The translations under genes and the position numbers were made by a program. The notes under the pieces were generated by a model. It was not told the origin of the DNA and made no database searches. It saw nothing but the letters and a program-made list of their open reading frames with translations. Positions 2,145 to 30,170 of a stretch of 64,000 nt of DNA are shown here, one piece after another (the stretch's first letter is position 1; each line of letters opens with the position of its first letter). Source of the DNA: Mobula hypostoma. Taxonomy: Eukaryota. Location of the stretch: positions 99,946,001 to 100,010,000 of the forward strand of contig NC_086097.1 in assembly GCF_963921235.1 (NCBI RefSeq). Direction: 5' to 3'.

Positions 2145-2480
2145 GTCCCTCCTCTTGGCCTTCCGAGACAAAAATAAATTTGTACCAGGAAAAAACAACT
2201 TTAAAGGAGGATCTGCTCAGATAGGGCAGCAGAAATGCTGCACCTCAGAAATCCCCCCCCCCACCATTACTTTATGTGCATCTACATCTACCCTATTATC
2301 CCTAATCGCTACCTACAAGATTGTTCCATAAATTTGATCAACAGTCTTTAGAAATGCAGCTTCGTTCATATGCCTGTTGGCTCTTCCCCTGCTGGCCGAT
2401 TAATCTCATTCCTTGTCTTCACCCCTTCATTCTCTGGTCGTTAAAACTCTCTCTTCCCAGAGGCAACAGAAAGGTAGGTA

Positions 2481-2569
2481 ACATACATCAAAGTTGCTGG
2501 TGAACGCAGCAGGCCAAGCAGCATCTATAGGAAGAGGCGCAGTCGACGTTTCAGGCCGAGACCCTTCGT
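2481..2569 (-). mobile_element. 89-bp Penelope-end insert with hammerhead core, nested in the ERV
   Basis: 14-bp TSD CAGAAAGGTAGGTA at 2467-2480 and 2570-2583; minus CTGACGA-AGGGTCTCGGCCT-GAAA-CG-TC-GACTG. Confidence 0.8.
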
Positions 2570-3129
2570 CAGAAAGGTAGGTACATCAGATTCACAGGCC
2601 CTCTCATCGATGTACAGGAAGTGGTTGGGGTGATCTCTATTTGAGTGACAGCAAGGACTTCTCCCTGGTGGCAACCCCTTCCGAACTGTCCAATCGATCA
2701 CTGGCCTGACTGCTGAAAGGGGCCGGGTTACTTGTATTCACTCCCTGTTCAGGCTGGGGGTGATCGCCTTCAGATGCTGTGTGCAATCTTTCTCAGTCTG
2801 GCATGTCATCGAAGTTGTGGAACCTGTTGTCTGTGCTTTAACTTAAATCTCTCCCCATCTATTTTCCCCAGTATCTTTTTTATTCTATGCTATTCAACGA
2901 ATCATCTACCTTCTAAACCAGCCTTCATTACAGAGTACTACTGCCATCACACTTAAGCGTGCTATTCACGGGTTTCTGTCATGCTCTGGGTGTCTTCTGT
3001 CTGTTCCATCAACTGTGATCAGCTCTGGTGTGACCGGCTGGTGTTCATTTCTTAGATTCTCTGTAATTACACCCTTACTGGGTGCACTTGAGCACCTGCA
3101 CTGTCTGTGAGAGCAACAAGAAGGTGAAT

Positions 3130-11532: not shown

Positions 11533-11661
11533 ATCGATACGAGGAAATCTGCAGATGCTGAAAATTCAAGCAACACACATAAAAAATGCTGGTGAAAGCA
11601 GCAGGCCAGGCAGCATCCATAGGAAGAGGATGGATTCTTCCTATGGATGCTGCCTGGCCTG
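11533..11661. mobile_element. Fold-back Penelope-end mini insert
   Basis: TSD CAAGATTCTC at 11523-11532 and 11662-11671; internal inverted repeat gcaggccaggcagcatccataggaaga / tcttcctatggatgctgcctggcctgc. Confidence 0.75.
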
Positions 11662-11897
11662 CAAGATTCTCGTGGAAGTTAGTCCTCTTGGCCTGCATTT
11701 GGCCCATATCTCTCAACCTTTCATATCTATATACAGTACCTGTTCAGAAAACTTTTTAAATCTTGTTAATATCTTTCAAGACACCAGGATGTAGCCAAGC
11801 ATTTTCAGTGTCCTTGCCAGCTATTACCCTTTTCCTGCTATTTATTTTAACTTGCTGACAGCTTGTTTTAAGTTTTTCCCTCCCTGTATAATTGATC

Positions 11898-24293: not shown

Positions 24294-27200
24294 GTAAGAG
24301 TTTCTTAATGGACAAATATCTCATTGTCTCATTGTGGAATCAGAAAGTCAATTTTCTTTTTTTTAAATTTTATTTTTATTTGGATAACGTTTTCACAAGT
24401 AATACACAAACTTTTTTTTACATATATAACCTTTACCATTTTTTATGTGAGTAAATCTATATTTGTTTGTATATTCACAGGTGCAAATTGAGATAATTTA
24501 GAAGATAATTAGGCACTCAAATAGATGTTTATGTGTAATTGTAATTCCACTCTTTTAAATTAAATAATGATAATAGTTGTTATAAAAATATTAATAATAG
24601 TGGTTGAATACTAATTTCCATGTATCTCTTCTGGTTCATTTCTTTCTGGTCCAAAATTTCCCCAGATCTTTACTTGTGTTAATTCCACATTTTCCCAAAA
24701 AAAAGAACAGTAAACATTCGAGCCAAAGGTGCTTACATTAACACTATTACTATGTTGGTGAGACAAACAGTATAAACCATTAGGAGAGTCATCTAAAGTC
24801 TGCTCGCTCTGGGGTTATAAATTCAATCCATTTATTCCAAACTTGATAAAATTTTTCCTTTTGAATTCTCAGAGAGTAGGTCATCTTTTCCATTTTAAAT
24901 ATTTCCAAAATGATTTCATGCCAGTCTTCTAATGTAGGTGATGTTAGATTTAACCACTTTCTGGTGATTGATTTCTTACTTGCCACTAAAAGGGCCTGCA
25001 GCAGCTTTATATCTATCTTCTGTTCCAAAAACAATACATGCCCCAAGTAGAGAGTCTCAAAGTTCAGAGGTATCTGAGTCTTAAATACATTAATTAATGT
25101 TCTATGAATACCTTCCCAATATAAACTTAATTTGGGGCAATCCCAAAAAATATGGAAATGATTTGCCTCCTTGGAGCTGCACCTTCTCCAACACGTCACG
25201 TCTTTATGTCTTTCCTGGTATGGGGTCTTGAAGTATCTTATAATATTTTTCCAACAATGTTCTCTCCAAGTCAAAGAGTTAGTCGAAGACCACTGAAAGC
25301 TGCATATTTTCCCTCAAGCCGGCTGTGAAAGTATCAACTCCTCTTCTTTCTCCCACTTCTCTTTAATATACAATGTGTTTTCATTTCTGGCATGAGAGAG
25401 GGCATTATATAATCGAGAAATTGATTTACTTGGTATTGAACTGTAAGCCGATTTCAGAATCTTGAAAAATTCTAATTCTGTTGTTGATAAGTCTGTATAT
25501 CTACAATTCTGGTTAACATAATGTCGTACTTGAAAGTACCTAAAAAAAAAAGTCATTGTGTTCTAGGCCATGTTTGTCCTGTAGGGATTGAAAACTTTGT
25601 AATACTCTTTTATGTATAAATGAGAGATAGGTTGTAAGACCTTTCTTTATTCACAGTTCAGATCTTTTATCTCCTCTGTTGGGAAGGAATTTGGTATCAT
25701 AAGCGCACCATCTGAAAAGTTTTAACATGTTATTGATTCCACATGAATTAGCCACCTTCTGCCGTACTTTTAATGTGAGATTTATCCAGCTGTTTTTAAT
25801 TTTTTCCAATTGGGCCATCAATCCTTTGTCCGCTATTGAGGCCTGTAGAGGGAACGCTGTCAATCAATCCAAATTCTATTTCCTTCTATCTAGCCTTATA
25901 TTCCCTATTGCACCGATATAACAGAGCAGTTATCTGTGAAACATAAAAATAATTTCTCAAACAAGGAAGTGCCATACCTCCTCCTTCCTTTCCTAACTGT
26001 AAAGTGTTAAATTGGATTCTAGGTTTCTTTCCTTTCCAGATAAAGTGGGAAATCCATTTGTCCCATTCCCTAAATTGATTATCGTTCACTTCCACAGTTT
26101 AAGTCCGGAAAAGGTAAAGTAACCGAGGGAGAATATTCATTTTTATGGTATTTACCCTTGAATTTAGACTTAAAAAGGGGATAAGATTCCACCTATGTAT
26201 ATCTGCTTTTATCTCTGAAATTAATGGCCCATAATTTACCTGTGACGATGTTGAAAGATCTTTTGGCAGGGTTATTCCTAAATATTTTAATGATTTAGCT
26301 TCCCACTTAGGATCATATGTATCCTGCAGTTTTTTGGGTGCTGTATAATTTAAGGACAAAACCTGCATTTTCTTTACATTAATTTTATAACCTGATATTT
26401 TCCCTAACTCATCCAACAGTATAAACAATCCTATAAATGATTTTTCTGGTTCACTCAAATAGACTAAAACGTCATCTGTGAATAGCACCACCTTCTGTTC
26501 AATCCCTGCCACCTTGATACCTTTTACAATTTTGCTCTGTCTTATTAGTTGGGCAAGAGGTTTAATATATTGTGCAAAAAGGAGAGGAGAAATTGGGCAT
26601 CCCTGTCTAGTTCCTCTCTCTAAAATAAAAGAGTCAGAGAGGTCCCCATTTATCTTAATTTGAGCTGTAGGGCTGTCATATAAAGTCTGGATTACTTTAA
26701 TAAACTTTTCTTGAAACCCGAATCTTCCTAACACTCTATATAGGAACACCCAACTAACTGAATCAAAAGATTTCTCAGCTTCTTATCCCACTACCATTGT
26801 CTCTGTCCCGTTCTTAATAACCTGTTCTAGTATGTGTAAAGTTCTCCTTATGTTGTCCTGGGTTTGTCTTTGCTGAATGAATCCAGTCTGGTCTAAGTGG
26901 ATGAGGCCAGGTAGAAGCTTTTCCAGTCTATAAGCTAATATAGATGTAAATAATTTGTCCAAATTAAGAACACTGATTGGCCGGTAATTGCCACATTCTA
27001 GTTTATCTTTAGCCTCTTTAGGAATAACTGAGATAATCGCCTCTCTTCAGGAAGGTGGAATTTCTCCTGTCTGTAAGATCCAATTAAGGGTGTTAAGTAG
27101 TAATGGGGCTAACTGTGACTTCAGCCATTTGTATCACTCTGAGGTAAACCCACAGAACCTGGAGACTTTCCGGCCTTTGATCTAGAGATGGCCGCGTTCA

Positions 27201-27764
27201 GTTCTTTGGCAGTTACTGGTTCTAATAGGCATTCATTTTGTAAATCTGTGAGCTTGGGTAGATCTAAAGAATTCAGGAAGGTGTCTATATAGGGCTCATT
27301 GGAGGCCCGGGGTTGAGAGTACAGCTTTAGATAATATGTTTCAAAACTCTCTTGAATTTTCCCTATTGCTTGCTCCACAAGCTTTGTTTTTGGATTCTCT
27401 ATTTTATGAATTGTATTGTCTGCTTGTTGTTTTCGTAACTTATATGCTAATAATCTAGCTGATTTTCCTCCTACTTCATAATTCTTTTGTCTCAGGTAAA
27501 GAAAGATTCTTTGAGTTTCCAATGTGTATATATCATCAATTTCACTTTGCACTTCCTTAATTTCCTGTTTTAAATTAGAATTAATTTTGTTGCTATCTAC
27601 AACTTGAAGTTGTTTTAATTTTCCTTGAAGGTCTGCTAATTTTTGTGCATTGAATTTTTTCATGTGAGTAGTAACGGAAATAATTTTTCCTCTCAGTACA
27701 GCTTTCAATGTATCCCATAAGATCACTGGTGATGTTTCTCCCCTGTCATTAAGGTCTAGGTATT

Positions 27765-27968
27765 GGTGAACGCAGCAGGCCAGGCAGCATCTGTAGGAAG
27801 AGGTGCAGTCGACGTTTCAGGTCGAGACCCTTCGTCAGGTCCTGATGAAGGGTCTTGGCCTGAAACGTCGACTGCACCTCTTCCTACAGATGCTGCCTGG
27901 CCTGCTGCGTTCACCAGCAACTTTGATGTGTGTTGCTTGAATTTCCAGCATCTGCAGAATTCCTGTTG
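27765..27968. mobile_element. Fold-back Penelope-end insert with two inverted hammerhead motifs, in L1 ORF2
   Basis: 16-bp TSD TTAAGGTCTAGGTATT (27749-27764, 27969-27984); 76-bp inverted arms 27764-27839 and 27841-27916. Confidence 0.88.
27838..27874 (+). ncRNA. Minimal type-I hammerhead ribozyme motif (core intact)
   Basis: GGTC-CTGATGA-A-GGGTCTTGGCCT-GAAA-CG-TC-GACTG; palindromic ACGT stem III; predicted cleavage after C27869. Confidence 0.65.
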
Positions 27969-29146
27969 TTAAGGTCTAGGTATTCTTTGATTTCTCCCCT
28001 TAATCTCTCCATTACTTTCGGGTTATTGAGTATATGTGAGTTTAACCTCCATAGTGTTTTCCTCATTTTCCTTTCCAGAATTAGAGACATAGAGACTGGG
28101 CTATGATCTGACCGATCAATTGTTGCAATATTACAGTCTTTTATCCTGAGTCTATCTGTATTAAATATAAAGAAATAGTCTATCCTTGAATAGGCTGAAT
28201 GAGGGAAAGAGTAATGTGTATAATCTTTACTAATGGGGTGTAATTCCCTCCGCACATCTATAATTCCCAACTCCTCCATCAATAAATTCACTTTCCTAGT
28301 CAGGTTTATTCTGAATAACTGTTCTTGAAGAATCTAATGCAGGGTTTAACCTAATATTAAAATCCCCTCCACAGATTACTACCCCTTGAGAACTGACCAT
28401 TAGGTCAAAAATGTGTCTATAGAATGACCATTCACAACCTGGTGGAGCATGAACATTCAGCAGTGTTATTTCTGTACCTTCTATTCTTCCTGTAATTTTT
28501 ACAAATCGTCCATCTTTGTCTTTAGTCTCTGAAATATGTTCATAATTAAGAGTACTTGATATTAAAGTAGCTACTCCTCTTTTGTGGCCCAATTTATATG
28601 ATGAATAAAATACATGCTTAAAGCCCATTCTTTTTAATTTTCCATGTTCGGATTGGCTCATATGTGTTTCCTGGAGGAAAGCTATTTCTGCCCTCTCTTT
28701 TTTCAATTTAGACATAATCTTATTTCTCTTAATTGGATTCAAAACCCCATTAACATTATAGGAAATTATTTTTACCAGTTCAATTTGCATTTTTCTCCAA
28801 TAGAAAAAAAACACTCTCCTTTTCTAACCAAACAGTAAGCAATCCCTCCTCAACAGTAAACCAAAACATAACCACACCCTAGACATTTTTGAATGTATAA
28901 CATTTGAAAATTTTCCCCAACTTCCAACAGTGAGGCCTGAGCACCAACCCGCCTCAGTTCAGAGGGATAACCTCTATCTTCACCCTGTGTTAGAGGGCCC
29001 TCAGCAGTGTGAATAATCATAGAGAATTATCTCCTATTTGTCTCGACCATATTGCTGTCATTCAAGTTATTCCATCTAGTTTATTTTCAGTTACCAGCTT
29101 TCATTTTACCTTTGAGTCCGATTTAGTCTTTTTAGACATTTCCCAA

Positions 29147-30133
29147 TTATTCTACACTCTCTGTACGTTTGCGTCTGAATACTTGCAGCTTTTCCTTGTA
29201 GTTTGACACTCCGGTTCGAGTGGAGCTTCCTTGCCCCACTGGCTGCCATGTCCACCGCTGAATCCTCTCCAGTAACGACTCCGGTTGGGTGATAACTTCA
29301 ATAGGTAGTCCCCGGTCCTCCAGGTCCAACGTTGCCTCCTCCACTGTAGCATAGGTTTTTGTCCCTTCGTCGTAAAAGACTCTCAGCCGAGCTGGATACA
29401 GGGTCTGAAATCTGATGTTGATTTCTTTCAGGACCCTCCGTGTTTCCGCATATTCCTTGCATCTGGCAAGGATCCCTGGTGCGTAATTGTGGTCTAAACT
29501 GATTTTACAGTTGTTCCACATAAAGCCTTTCTTTTGCCATGCCCGTTTAAGCACCTCTTCCTTTGTTCTGTAACTGAGAAATCTGACTAAAATCGATCTG
29601 GGCTGGGCGCCTGCCGGAGGCTGTGGTGCCAACGCGCGGTGAGCCCTTTCTATCTGTAGGTGTTTTGTGTCTGGTATATCAAGGTTCTCTCTAAGCAGCT
29701 TCTCCACGAAGGGAATCATCAATCCGGGTTTACCTTCAGTTCCTTCGGGAACTCCGTAGATCCTCAGATTTTCCCTTCTTGAGCGGCCTTCTTGGTCTAT
29801 TAGTTTCAACTGGAGCTGCTCTTGTAGCTTCAGCATTTCTGCTATCACTTCCTCTGCGTTTTGCAACCTCTCCTCAATTCCTACAATCCTCGCTTCGGCT
29901 TCGTCTAACCTCAGATTAGTTTTTACTATTTCTCCTTTAATATCTTCCAGCTGTTTGTTGATATCTTGTTGGATCTCGCGAATCTCTCTGAGAATCAAAG
30001 TTAGATTCATCGATTCTTCCACATTATCTCCATCCTGGCTAGCCGCGGGGGAGCTAGGCCCCTCATCTTGCTGCGTCTTTTTATATTTATCAGCCTTTTG
30101 AGTGGACTTTTTATTCTTGTACTTGGACTCCAT
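29147..30133 (-). CDS. L1 ORF1p (coiled coil, RRM, CTD), open 328 aa
   Basis: DQEGRSRRENLRIYGVPEG, IERAHRAL, PRSILVRFL, LYPARLRV motifs. Confidence 0.9.
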   Translation of the reverse strand: MESKYKNKKSTQKADKYKKTQQDEGPSSPAASQDGDNVEESMNLTLILREIREIQQDINKQLEDIKGEIVKTNLRLDEAEARIVGIEERLQNAEEVIAEMLKLQEQLQLKLIDQEGRSRRENLRIYGVPEGTEGKPGLMIPFVEKLLRENLDIPDTKHLQIERAHRALAPQPPAGAQPRSILVRFLSYRTKEEVLKRAWQKKGFMWNNCKISLDHNYAPGILARCKEYAETRRVLKEINIRFQTLYPARLRVFYDEGTKTYATVEEATLDLEDRGLPIEVITQPESLLERIQRWTWQPVGQGSSTRTGVSNYKEKLQVFRRKRTESVE

Positions 30134-30170
30134 CCTTGTCCCTTTTATTGATATAGTTATACAATACTAA

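What the first reader, a model, noticed from the sequence alone, without database searches (positions are those of the whole stretch)
27749..27984. Head-to-head double-hammerhead hairpin inserted as a 204-bp unit with a 16-bp TSD
Seen: a non-coding insert in L1 ORF2 with 76-bp inverted arms (about 3 mismatches) around a single base (27840). The symmetry centre sits 2 nt upstream of the CTGA[T/C]GA core, so each strand encodes a hammerhead. It has a perfect TSD, TTAAGGTCTAGGTATT. Inference: either a one-off fold-back product of Penelope retrotransposition or a distinct non-autonomous retrozyme-like family. The hairpin would sequester the ribozyme and give long dsRNA in ZFYVE1 pre-mRNA.
Basis: partly seen in the sequence, partly recalled or inferred. 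Interest (0 to 1): 0.7.

Follow-up and report, generated by a model that had tools for sequence, protein, structure and literature searches.

The report
Head-to-head Penelope retrotransposon insertion stub
This 204-base hairpin is a real, recent insertion of two back-to-back end-pieces of a very common Penelope-type jumping gene, one of thousands in this genome that were likely each built anew when both cut DNA strands copied the element's RNA, so it is not a self-spreading ribozyme element and its ribozyme is predicted to be locked shut.

Summary
The insert is real: 204 bp, an exact 16-bp TSD, 76-bp arms, with empty L1 sites in 14 of 14 sister copies. It is neither a one-off nor a replicating unit. 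At least 3,701 head-to-head pairs of this Penelope end exist, with 71 different junctions in 98 loci. The 30-40-nt PLE 'tail' is on exactly one arm in 94 of 98 and on both arms in none. The two arms share subfamily variants, and either arm reaches further at the centre (43:44). This window's junction occurs in both orientations (5:5) and four haplotypes. A full-length parent (RT + GIY-YIG) was found. In 800 kb of evenly spaced DNA, junctions lie from -1,600 to +79, so the hairpin is the short extreme of the published inverted-pLTR + tail + TSD layout. Likely mechanism: both target strands prime reverse transcription, and the cDNA ends are joined. Only the + strand keeps helix I, and the hairpin costs it about 52 kcal/mol. 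The scan found this before, many times, in this and other genomes. Low interest.

The parts
27749..27764 (.). left copy of the 16-bp target-site duplication (L1 ORF2 sequence)
   Evidence: single copy in 14 of 14 sister L1s
27765..27839 (-). tail-less (short) arm: Penelope pLTR end read on the minus strand, from core -1 to +74; shorter than the family mode of +93 to +97
   Evidence: 3 differences from the parent in 74 nt
27840..27840 (.). centre base of the head-to-head junction (spacer GTC in tailed-arm sense)
27841..27968 (+). tailed (long) arm: Penelope pLTR end through the tail, to about core +127 (the next two T are shared with the TSD)
   Evidence: 5 differences from the parent in 129 nt
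27838..27873 (+). minimal type I hammerhead motif, + strand: 4-bp helix I, core from 27842, helix II of 4 bp with a G-U first pair, no stable helix III; predicted cut after 27869
   Evidence: motif class from PMC4209133; no Rfam hit
27807..27842 (-). minimal hammerhead core, - strand, with helix I broken by an A-A mismatch
27939..27970 (+). PLE 'tail', present on this arm only; in the parent it runs on into the ORF leader
27969..27984 (.). right copy of the 16-bp target-site duplication
24789..30166 (-). host L1-type retrotransposon copy (approximate span of its ORF pieces); endonuclease domain 28299-28823, RT domain 26102-26782; the insert lies between them

Best explanation
The hairpin is a dead-end, extremely 5'-truncated insertion of an endonuclease-bearing Penelope-like retrotransposon: two pLTR ends, one with the tail and one without, sit head to head inside one target-site duplication, likely because both strands of a staggered cut primed reverse transcription and the two short cDNAs were then joined. 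Shown here: the anatomy, the parent element, the one-sided tail, arms that share their source haplotype, symmetric and varied junctions, a continuum of arm lengths, and a pile-up of arm starts at the 5' edge of the hammerhead (mode -4). Inferred: a staggered nick of about 13-16 nt. Inferred: one strand primes at the downstream (tail) start site and the other at the upstream site about 35 nt earlier. Inferred: both cDNAs often stop near a defined RNA 5' end or stall at the first base of helix I. Inferred: host end joining with microhomology or short templated inserts closes the centre. Inferred: the product lacks the RNA downstream of the start sites and is not copied again as a unit.
For: Parent pLTR-ORF-pLTR at L099 4298..543, whose tail continues into the ORF leader; GIY-YIG at E 4e-5 and a weak RVT_1 hit on its parts. 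Tail on exactly one arm in 94 of 98 loci, on both in 0, on neither in 4. Long arms end at +123 to +135 in 56 of 58, short arms at +88 to +103 in 41 of 58. At six non-CpG subfamily sites the two arms agree in 49/52, 40/42, 46/48, 39/42, 41/42 and 23/24 loci (shuffled means 41.3, 23.3, 24.0, 16.6, 21.6, 14.5), while three CpG-decay sites (5, 25, 67) behave independently. Tailed arm reaches further in 43, tail-less in 44, tie in 11. 71 distinct spacers in 98 loci: 39 with microhomology, 9 blunt, 50 with inserted bases. 19 head-to-head pairs in 800 kb, with arm starts from about -1,600 to +79; 12 of 19 have an exact TSD of 10-16 nt. In vitro, a lizard PLE nicks and extends both strands, starts at two sites that bound the tail, and needs RNA beyond them (PMC11167929).
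Against: No intermediate was observed; the mechanism is read from genomic scars. The in vitro model is a Poseidon element, whereas this parent has the linker zinc finger of Neptune/Nematis. 14 of 58 short arms end well before the second start site, including this window's (+74), so priming of that arm is looser than a fixed site. The 5' ends of the two arms are correlated (Spearman 0.73, p 0.0014, 16 of 19 pairs); this fits one shared template but also fits self-primed fold-back. Some junctions recur identically (12 of 98 and twice 5 of 98), which is what a few replicated masters would also give. The -4 peak is weaker when only junctions with inserted bases are counted (17 of 100 arm ends, against 9-13 at each of 0 to -3).
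Confidence: 0.72

Rival explanations
1. Same origin, built anew at each insertion, but by self-priming: one cDNA folds back on itself or switches to its own strand, and is copied back to form the second arm (self-priming was proposed for head-to-head PLE palindromes in PMC3846280).
For: Arms share their haplotype and their 5' ends are correlated; 39 of 98 junctions show microhomology.
Against: A fold-back from the first-primed arm predicts that the same arm always reaches further at the centre; observed 43:44. It does not explain why the second arm stops at the tail boundary in most copies and never carries the tail. Several junctions would need loops of 0-2 nt.
Confidence: 0.18
2. A distinct non-autonomous, retrozyme-like hairpin element is transcribed and retrotransposed as a unit by Penelope proteins.
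For: The exact 25-nt junction is at 20 places. The 40 best-scored of 600 candidates match nearly the whole 204 bp at 93-100%, with different TSDs among the 30 fetched. Short arms often end at one place.
Against: Those 40 were selected by likeness to the query. Among the first ten exact-junction loci the junction is GTC in 5 and GAC in 5 relative to the tail, in four haplotypes, and two haplotypes carry both orientations. A spacer of this window's type is 1 of the first 50 short-spacer loci. There are no tandem repeats. The two hammerheads are on opposite strands and cannot form the cis dimer that minimal motifs need (PMC4209133). The fold penalty is about 52 kcal/mol.
Confidence: 0.07
3. A sporadic, post-insertion inversion or a unique accident at this locus.
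For: This copy's short arm is about 20 nt shorter than the family mode.
Against: 3,701 exact-pattern pairs; 19 pairs in 800 kb; one TSD encloses both arms.
Confidence: 0.01

Closest known systems
Inverted-pLTR insertions of EN+ Penelope-like elements with a one-sided 30-40-bp tail (Adineta Pen2a_Av, PMC3846280, passages read; bioRxiv 10.1101/2021.04.23.441226 Fig. 2 legend, passages read; D. virilis form C, PMC2377424, passages read)
   Same: An inverted 5'-truncated copy adjoins the 5' end, head to head; the tail is at one end only; one TSD surrounds the whole unit.
   Different: Both copies are cut down to pLTR ends of 75 and 128 nt with no ORF left; the TSD is longer (16 bp against 8-10 bp in Adineta); arm starts pile up at the hammerhead's 5' edge.
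Minimal type I hammerheads of metazoan PLE pLTRs (PMC4209133, parts 1-2 of 4 read)
   Same: Short helix I, an extra base before helix II, a palindromic stub in place of helix III; that paper also notes dual motifs 100-700 bp apart on opposite strands, attributed to truncated PLEs.
   Different: The cores are only 3 nt apart; the first pair of helix II is G-U and not the conserved G-C; helix I is broken on the minus strand.
Anolis Poseidon PAc in vitro (PMC11167929, parts 1-2 of 4 read)
   Same: Two RT start sites bounding the tail, about 100-130 nt past the hammerhead; both target strands nicked and extended; hammerhead cleavage not needed.
   Different: Different PLE clade (linker zinc finger here); the parts read do not address how inverted ends or their junctions form.
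Non-LTR retrozymes (PMC7229834, abstract and outline only; bioRxiv 10.64898/2026.07.22.740005, parts 1-3 of 5 read)
   Same: Small, non-coding, PLE-derived, carrying a type I hammerhead.
   Different: Retrozymes are head-to-tail tandem repeats with two or more same-strand ribozymes that give linear and circular RNAs; here the copies are head to head and on opposite strands.
L1 twin priming (recalled, from no call)
   Same: Both target strands prime, giving an inverted 5' piece within one TSD.
   Different: In L1 the two pieces cover different parts of the RNA; here they cover the same part twice.

Membership tests
EN+ Penelope-like element insertion | [quoted passage not shown] | tested here: met
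   Arms differ from the L099 parent at 3 of 74 and 5 of 129 nt. GIY-YIG above its Pfam cut-off, RVT_1 below cut-off at E 7.5e-4; the whole ORF gave no hit at E 0.001. DKG motif and two Cys between GIY and YIG are seen in the translation.
EN+ Penelope-like element insertion | Inverted 5'-truncated partner, head to head | tested here: met
EN+ Penelope-like element insertion | 30-40-bp tail at one end only, continuous with the ORF start in the parent | tested here: met
   (94 of 98)
EN+ Penelope-like element insertion | Variable-length TSD | tested here: met
   16 bp here; best match of 13-16 nt in 41 of 58 loci, a few of them off the boundary
Neptune clade | Zinc-finger linker between RT and EN, and RT phylogeny | tested here: inconclusive
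   A CX4CX2C linker is present, which fits Neptune or Nematis; no tree was built
Minimal type I hammerhead | Conserved core with helices I and II | tested here: met
   + strand met; - strand helix I broken; Rfam no hit
Minimal type I hammerhead | Self-cleavage (as a dimer or with protein help) | not testable with these tools
   predicted to be blocked by the hairpin
Non-LTR retrozyme | Head-to-tail tandem units, each with a same-strand hammerhead | tested here: not met
   one inverted pair, no tandem unit
Non-LTR retrozyme | Copies descend from a unit of fixed structure | tested here: not met
   71 spacers in 98 loci; own junction 5:5 in orientation, four haplotypes
Non-LTR retrozyme | Abundant linear or circular monomer RNA | not testable with these tools
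   only contig-form runs were offered

The most novel reading that the evidence does not exclude
These tens of thousands of hairpins are an in vivo record of double target-primed reverse transcription by a dimeric Penelope protein on one RNA. That RNA's 5' end is set at the first base of hammerhead helix I (position -4), at a motif that reads both as an initiator and as a 3' splice acceptor and is kept in all seven long pLTR copies of this window, young and old alike. The hammerhead's edge, not its cut site, would then define the template, and a second stop at -19 might mark a branch point or an upstream start.
Probability: 0.4. Interest if true: 0.5.

Novelty: new member of a known kind. Interest (0 to 1): 0.24.

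Why it matters
This copy is an ordinary intronic scar. The family has some value because how Penelope-like elements make their inverted ends is still described as undefined (10.1101/2021.04.23.441226, passages read). The strict one-sided tail, the shared haplotype of the arms and the symmetric junction give a genomic test that favours priming of both target strands over fold-back. For annotation: such hairpins should be filed as truncated PLEs, not as MITEs, miRNA precursors or retrozymes.

Tried and rejected
Rfam: two miRNA-precursor matches far below their gathering scores, taken as generic hairpin hits; no hammerhead family matched. PDB sequence search with the parent ORF gave nothing meaningful. 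Expression: no RNA holder listed. Six coded runs held only as contigs were laid on the parent and on the window; no listed piece bridges this insert's own junctions and no start sites can be read, so editing, small RNAs, circles and the RNA 5' end are untested. One joint with GT..AG ends across the hairpin (27835 to 27946, 3 of 4 runs) is more simply a head-to-head junction from another locus with a 3-nt microhomology, and I did not count it as splicing. No GT..AG joint ending at the pLTR acceptor-like motif was among the 15 joints shown of 295 on the parent. Hinge at the ribozyme cut site (+28): only one arm in the 19 sample pairs (L162) and one in L099 start there, so it is not the main hot spot; the pattern counts cannot see such copies. 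The forced hammerhead fold had helix II one base out of register and is replaced. A whole-genome count of contiguous parent-type ends was not obtained, so the share of all insertions that are hairpins rests on the 800-kb sample. Literature searches for a printed twin-priming model of PLE inverted ends and for these hairpins in cartilaginous fish found none; most subscription papers are not in the library, and no supplements were read.

Full report
Observation. The inverted arms are at 27764-27839 and 27841-27916 (76 nt, 96% complementary, one base between them), and the 16-mer is repeated exactly at 27749-27764 and 27969-27984. The RNA fold is far beyond chance (z -23.19, 0 of 200 shuffles). 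The flanks are an L1-type ORF2 on the minus strand, with the endonuclease domain to the right and the RT domain to the left. A reference search with the left flank scored 40 of 885 candidates. Of these I read the 14 best non-self loci, and all 14 carry the 16-mer once, followed by the right flank (13 by ungapped count, one with a 1-nt deletion). So 27765-27968 (204 bp) is a true insertion with a 16-bp TSD. Two FYVE-encoding exons on the + strand lie at about 15.1 and 34.1 kb. That the gene is ZFYVE1, and that the host is a cartilaginous fish, are recalled resemblances and not tool results.

Source element. The window holds 11 matches to the core motif against 1.96 expected, most of them single pLTR ends. 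A long copy next to locus L054 proved to be a full element: pLTR, an ORF of 1,043 aa stop to stop, and a pLTR (L099 4298..543). The whole ORF gave no Pfam hit at E 0.001. Its parts gave GIY-YIG (E 4e-5, above cut-off) and RVT_1 (E 7.5e-4, below cut-off). The translation shows the DKG motif, a CX4CX2C linker and two cysteines between GIY and YIG; the RT catalytic motif lies out of frame in this copy. The linker points to Neptune or Nematis and not to Penelope/Poseidon (10.1101/2021.04.23.441226, passages); no tree was built. In the parent, the sequence that forms the long arm's last 30-35 nt runs on into the ORF leader, and the 3' pLTR stops before it. That is the PLE tail. The window's arms differ from the parent at 5 of 129 and 3 of 74 positions, and two of the differences are shared by both arms.

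Is it a family of one unit? At first sight, yes. The exact 25-nt junction occurs at 20 places (control 0), and the 40 best-scored of 600 candidates match nearly all 204 bp at 93-100%, with different TSDs among the 30 fetched. Those hits were selected by likeness to the query. Anchoring on the arms and leaving the centre free gives 1,589 loci with spacers of 0-12 nt and 2,112 with 13-42 nt (controls 0). I fetched the 50 listed loci of the first class and 48 of the 50 listed of the second, all from contig C1. They have 71 distinct spacers: 39 junctions show microhomology, 9 are blunt and 50 have inserted bases. A spacer of this window's type is 1 of the first 50. Among the first ten of the 20 exact-junction loci it reads GTC in five and GAC in five relative to the tail, in four source haplotypes, and two haplotypes carry both orientations. 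A unit copied from a master would keep one orientation. Against this reading, three junctions recur (12, 5 and 5 of 98), so a few replicated masters are not excluded; microhomology at a hot spot explains them as well.

Anatomy of the class. The tail is on exactly one arm in 94 of 98 loci, on both in none and on neither in 4. In the first 58 loci, long arms end at +123 to +135 from the core in 56. Short arms end at +88 to +103 in 41, earlier in 14 and apparently later in 3; the best TSD match is 13-16 nt in 41, a few of them off the boundary. The window's short arm ends at +74. At six subfamily-diagnostic sites the two arms of a locus carry the same base far more often than shuffled pairs (49/52, 40/42, 46/48, 39/42, 41/42, 23/24; p 0.0002 each). 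Three CpG-decay sites are independent, and a fourth is marginal (p 0.03). So both arms come from the same source and aged separately afterwards. Which arm reaches further at the centre is even: 43 tailed, 44 tail-less, 11 ties.

Unbiased sample. Eighty evenly spaced 10-kb stretches hold 91 arms with a pLTR end and 19 head-to-head pairs. Arm starts range from about -1,600 to +79, and 12 of the 19 have an exact TSD of 10-16 nt. One pair (L112) has a wrong 5' coordinate from my merging, and one (L157) is doubtful. Scaled to 3.48 Gb, this is roughly 75,000-80,000 pairs, and 11 of 19 are hairpin-short; this is a rough estimate. The hairpin is therefore the short end of a continuum. There is also a real hot spot. 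Counting by hand, among the 48 arms of at least 85% identity that are not at a stretch edge, 14 start within -17 to +7 and 4 within -150 to -18. In the 98 junction loci the weighted mode is -4 (23% of arm ends), with lesser peaks at -16 and -19; the -4 peak is weaker among junctions with inserted bases (17 of 100 ends, against 9-13 at each of 0 to -3). The 5' starts of the two arms are correlated (Spearman 0.73, p 0.0014; 16 pairs, with L104, L112 and L157 left out).

Ribozyme. The motif fits the minimal type I hammerhead of PLE pLTRs: an extra base before helix II, a short helix I and no stable helix III (PMC4209133, parts 1-2 read). That paper says such motifs need a dimer, and it notes dual motifs on opposite strands in truncated PLEs. 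On the + strand helix I has four pairs; on the - strand its second pair is A-A; the first pair of helix II is G-U in this subfamily. The two cores are on opposite strands, so no single RNA holds both. Forcing the hammerhead costs 51.6 and 51.7 kcal/mol in the insert, against 8.7 in the parent pLTR. The hinge lies 30 nt upstream of the predicted cut, so cleavage does not define it. Rfam found no hammerhead.

Mechanism. In vitro, the Anolis element PAc nicks and extends both target strands, is predicted to be a dimer, starts reverse transcription at two sites that bound the tail, needs RNA beyond them, and does not need hammerhead cleavage (PMC11167929, parts 1-2 read). Applied here by inference: a staggered cut is primed on both strands, one at the tail end and one at the upstream site; both cDNAs stop early, often at the 5' edge of helix I; end joining closes the centre. 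This accounts for the one-sided tail, the single TSD, the shared haplotype and the even junction. Self-primed fold-back, suggested for head-to-head palindromes in PMC3846280 (passages), fits the correlated starts, but it predicts a one-sided junction and does not explain the tail boundary. What sets the -4 stop is open. In all seven long pLTR copies of the window and in the parent, the core is preceded by a pyrimidine tract and YAG, often with a branch-like motif. This reads as a 3' splice acceptor, as in D. virilis, where the intron ends at helix I (PMC4209133; intron described in PMC2377424, passages). The same letters fit an initiator with its A at -4 (consensus recalled). The available runs were contigs only and could not decide.

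Comparison and novelty. An inverted truncated partner, a one-sided tail and a TSD are described as the typical PLE layout. Retrozymes are head-to-tail tandems with same-strand ribozymes (10.64898/2026.07.22.740005, parts 1-3 read; PMC7229834, abstract), a test that fails here. I found no printed twin-priming model for PLE inverted ends, within a library that lacks most subscription papers. The scan itself has noted these hairpins often: 507 findings in at least 40 genomes, and 1,803 notes fit the look-up in this genome. I wrote down the double-priming idea before looking these up, and they are not independent support. Verdict: a real feature, a new member of a known kind, interest 0.24.

Noticed in passing
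window 16637, 17539, 20741, 31970, 45941, 50759, 62807; L099 4149-4184: Every long pLTR copy in the window, young and old, has a pyrimidine tract and YAG ending 2 nt before the hammerhead core, often with a branch-like motif: it looks like a conserved 3' splice acceptor, and the same letters fit an initiator.
   Followed up: partly
L099 350-4330: The full-length parent sits inside the short arm of an older-looking hairpin: one 16-nt duplication appears to enclose both, so the element either inserted into a pLTR of its own family or both came from one complex event.
   Followed up: no
window 2480-2572 (-); L132 6875-6969; L170 68-175: Single tail-less arms that start at the core (0 to -4) with their own TSD: the same 5' stop occurs without an inverted partner.
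   Followed up: partly
window 11542-11662: A second, smaller head-to-head insertion whose centre lies downstream of the hammerhead, so that it has no core.
   Followed up: partly
L099 9085-9901: A tailed arm that starts at about the predicted ribozyme cut (+28), joined head to head through a short templated insert to a long 5'-truncated copy.
   Followed up: no
L215 (G000:C1:52912173-52912236): The junction insert contains two telomere-like hexamers.
   Followed up: no
young subfamily, e.g. window 27850-27861: The first pair of helix II is G-U, where PMC4209133 calls G-C highly conserved; older copies in the window have G-C.
   Followed up: no
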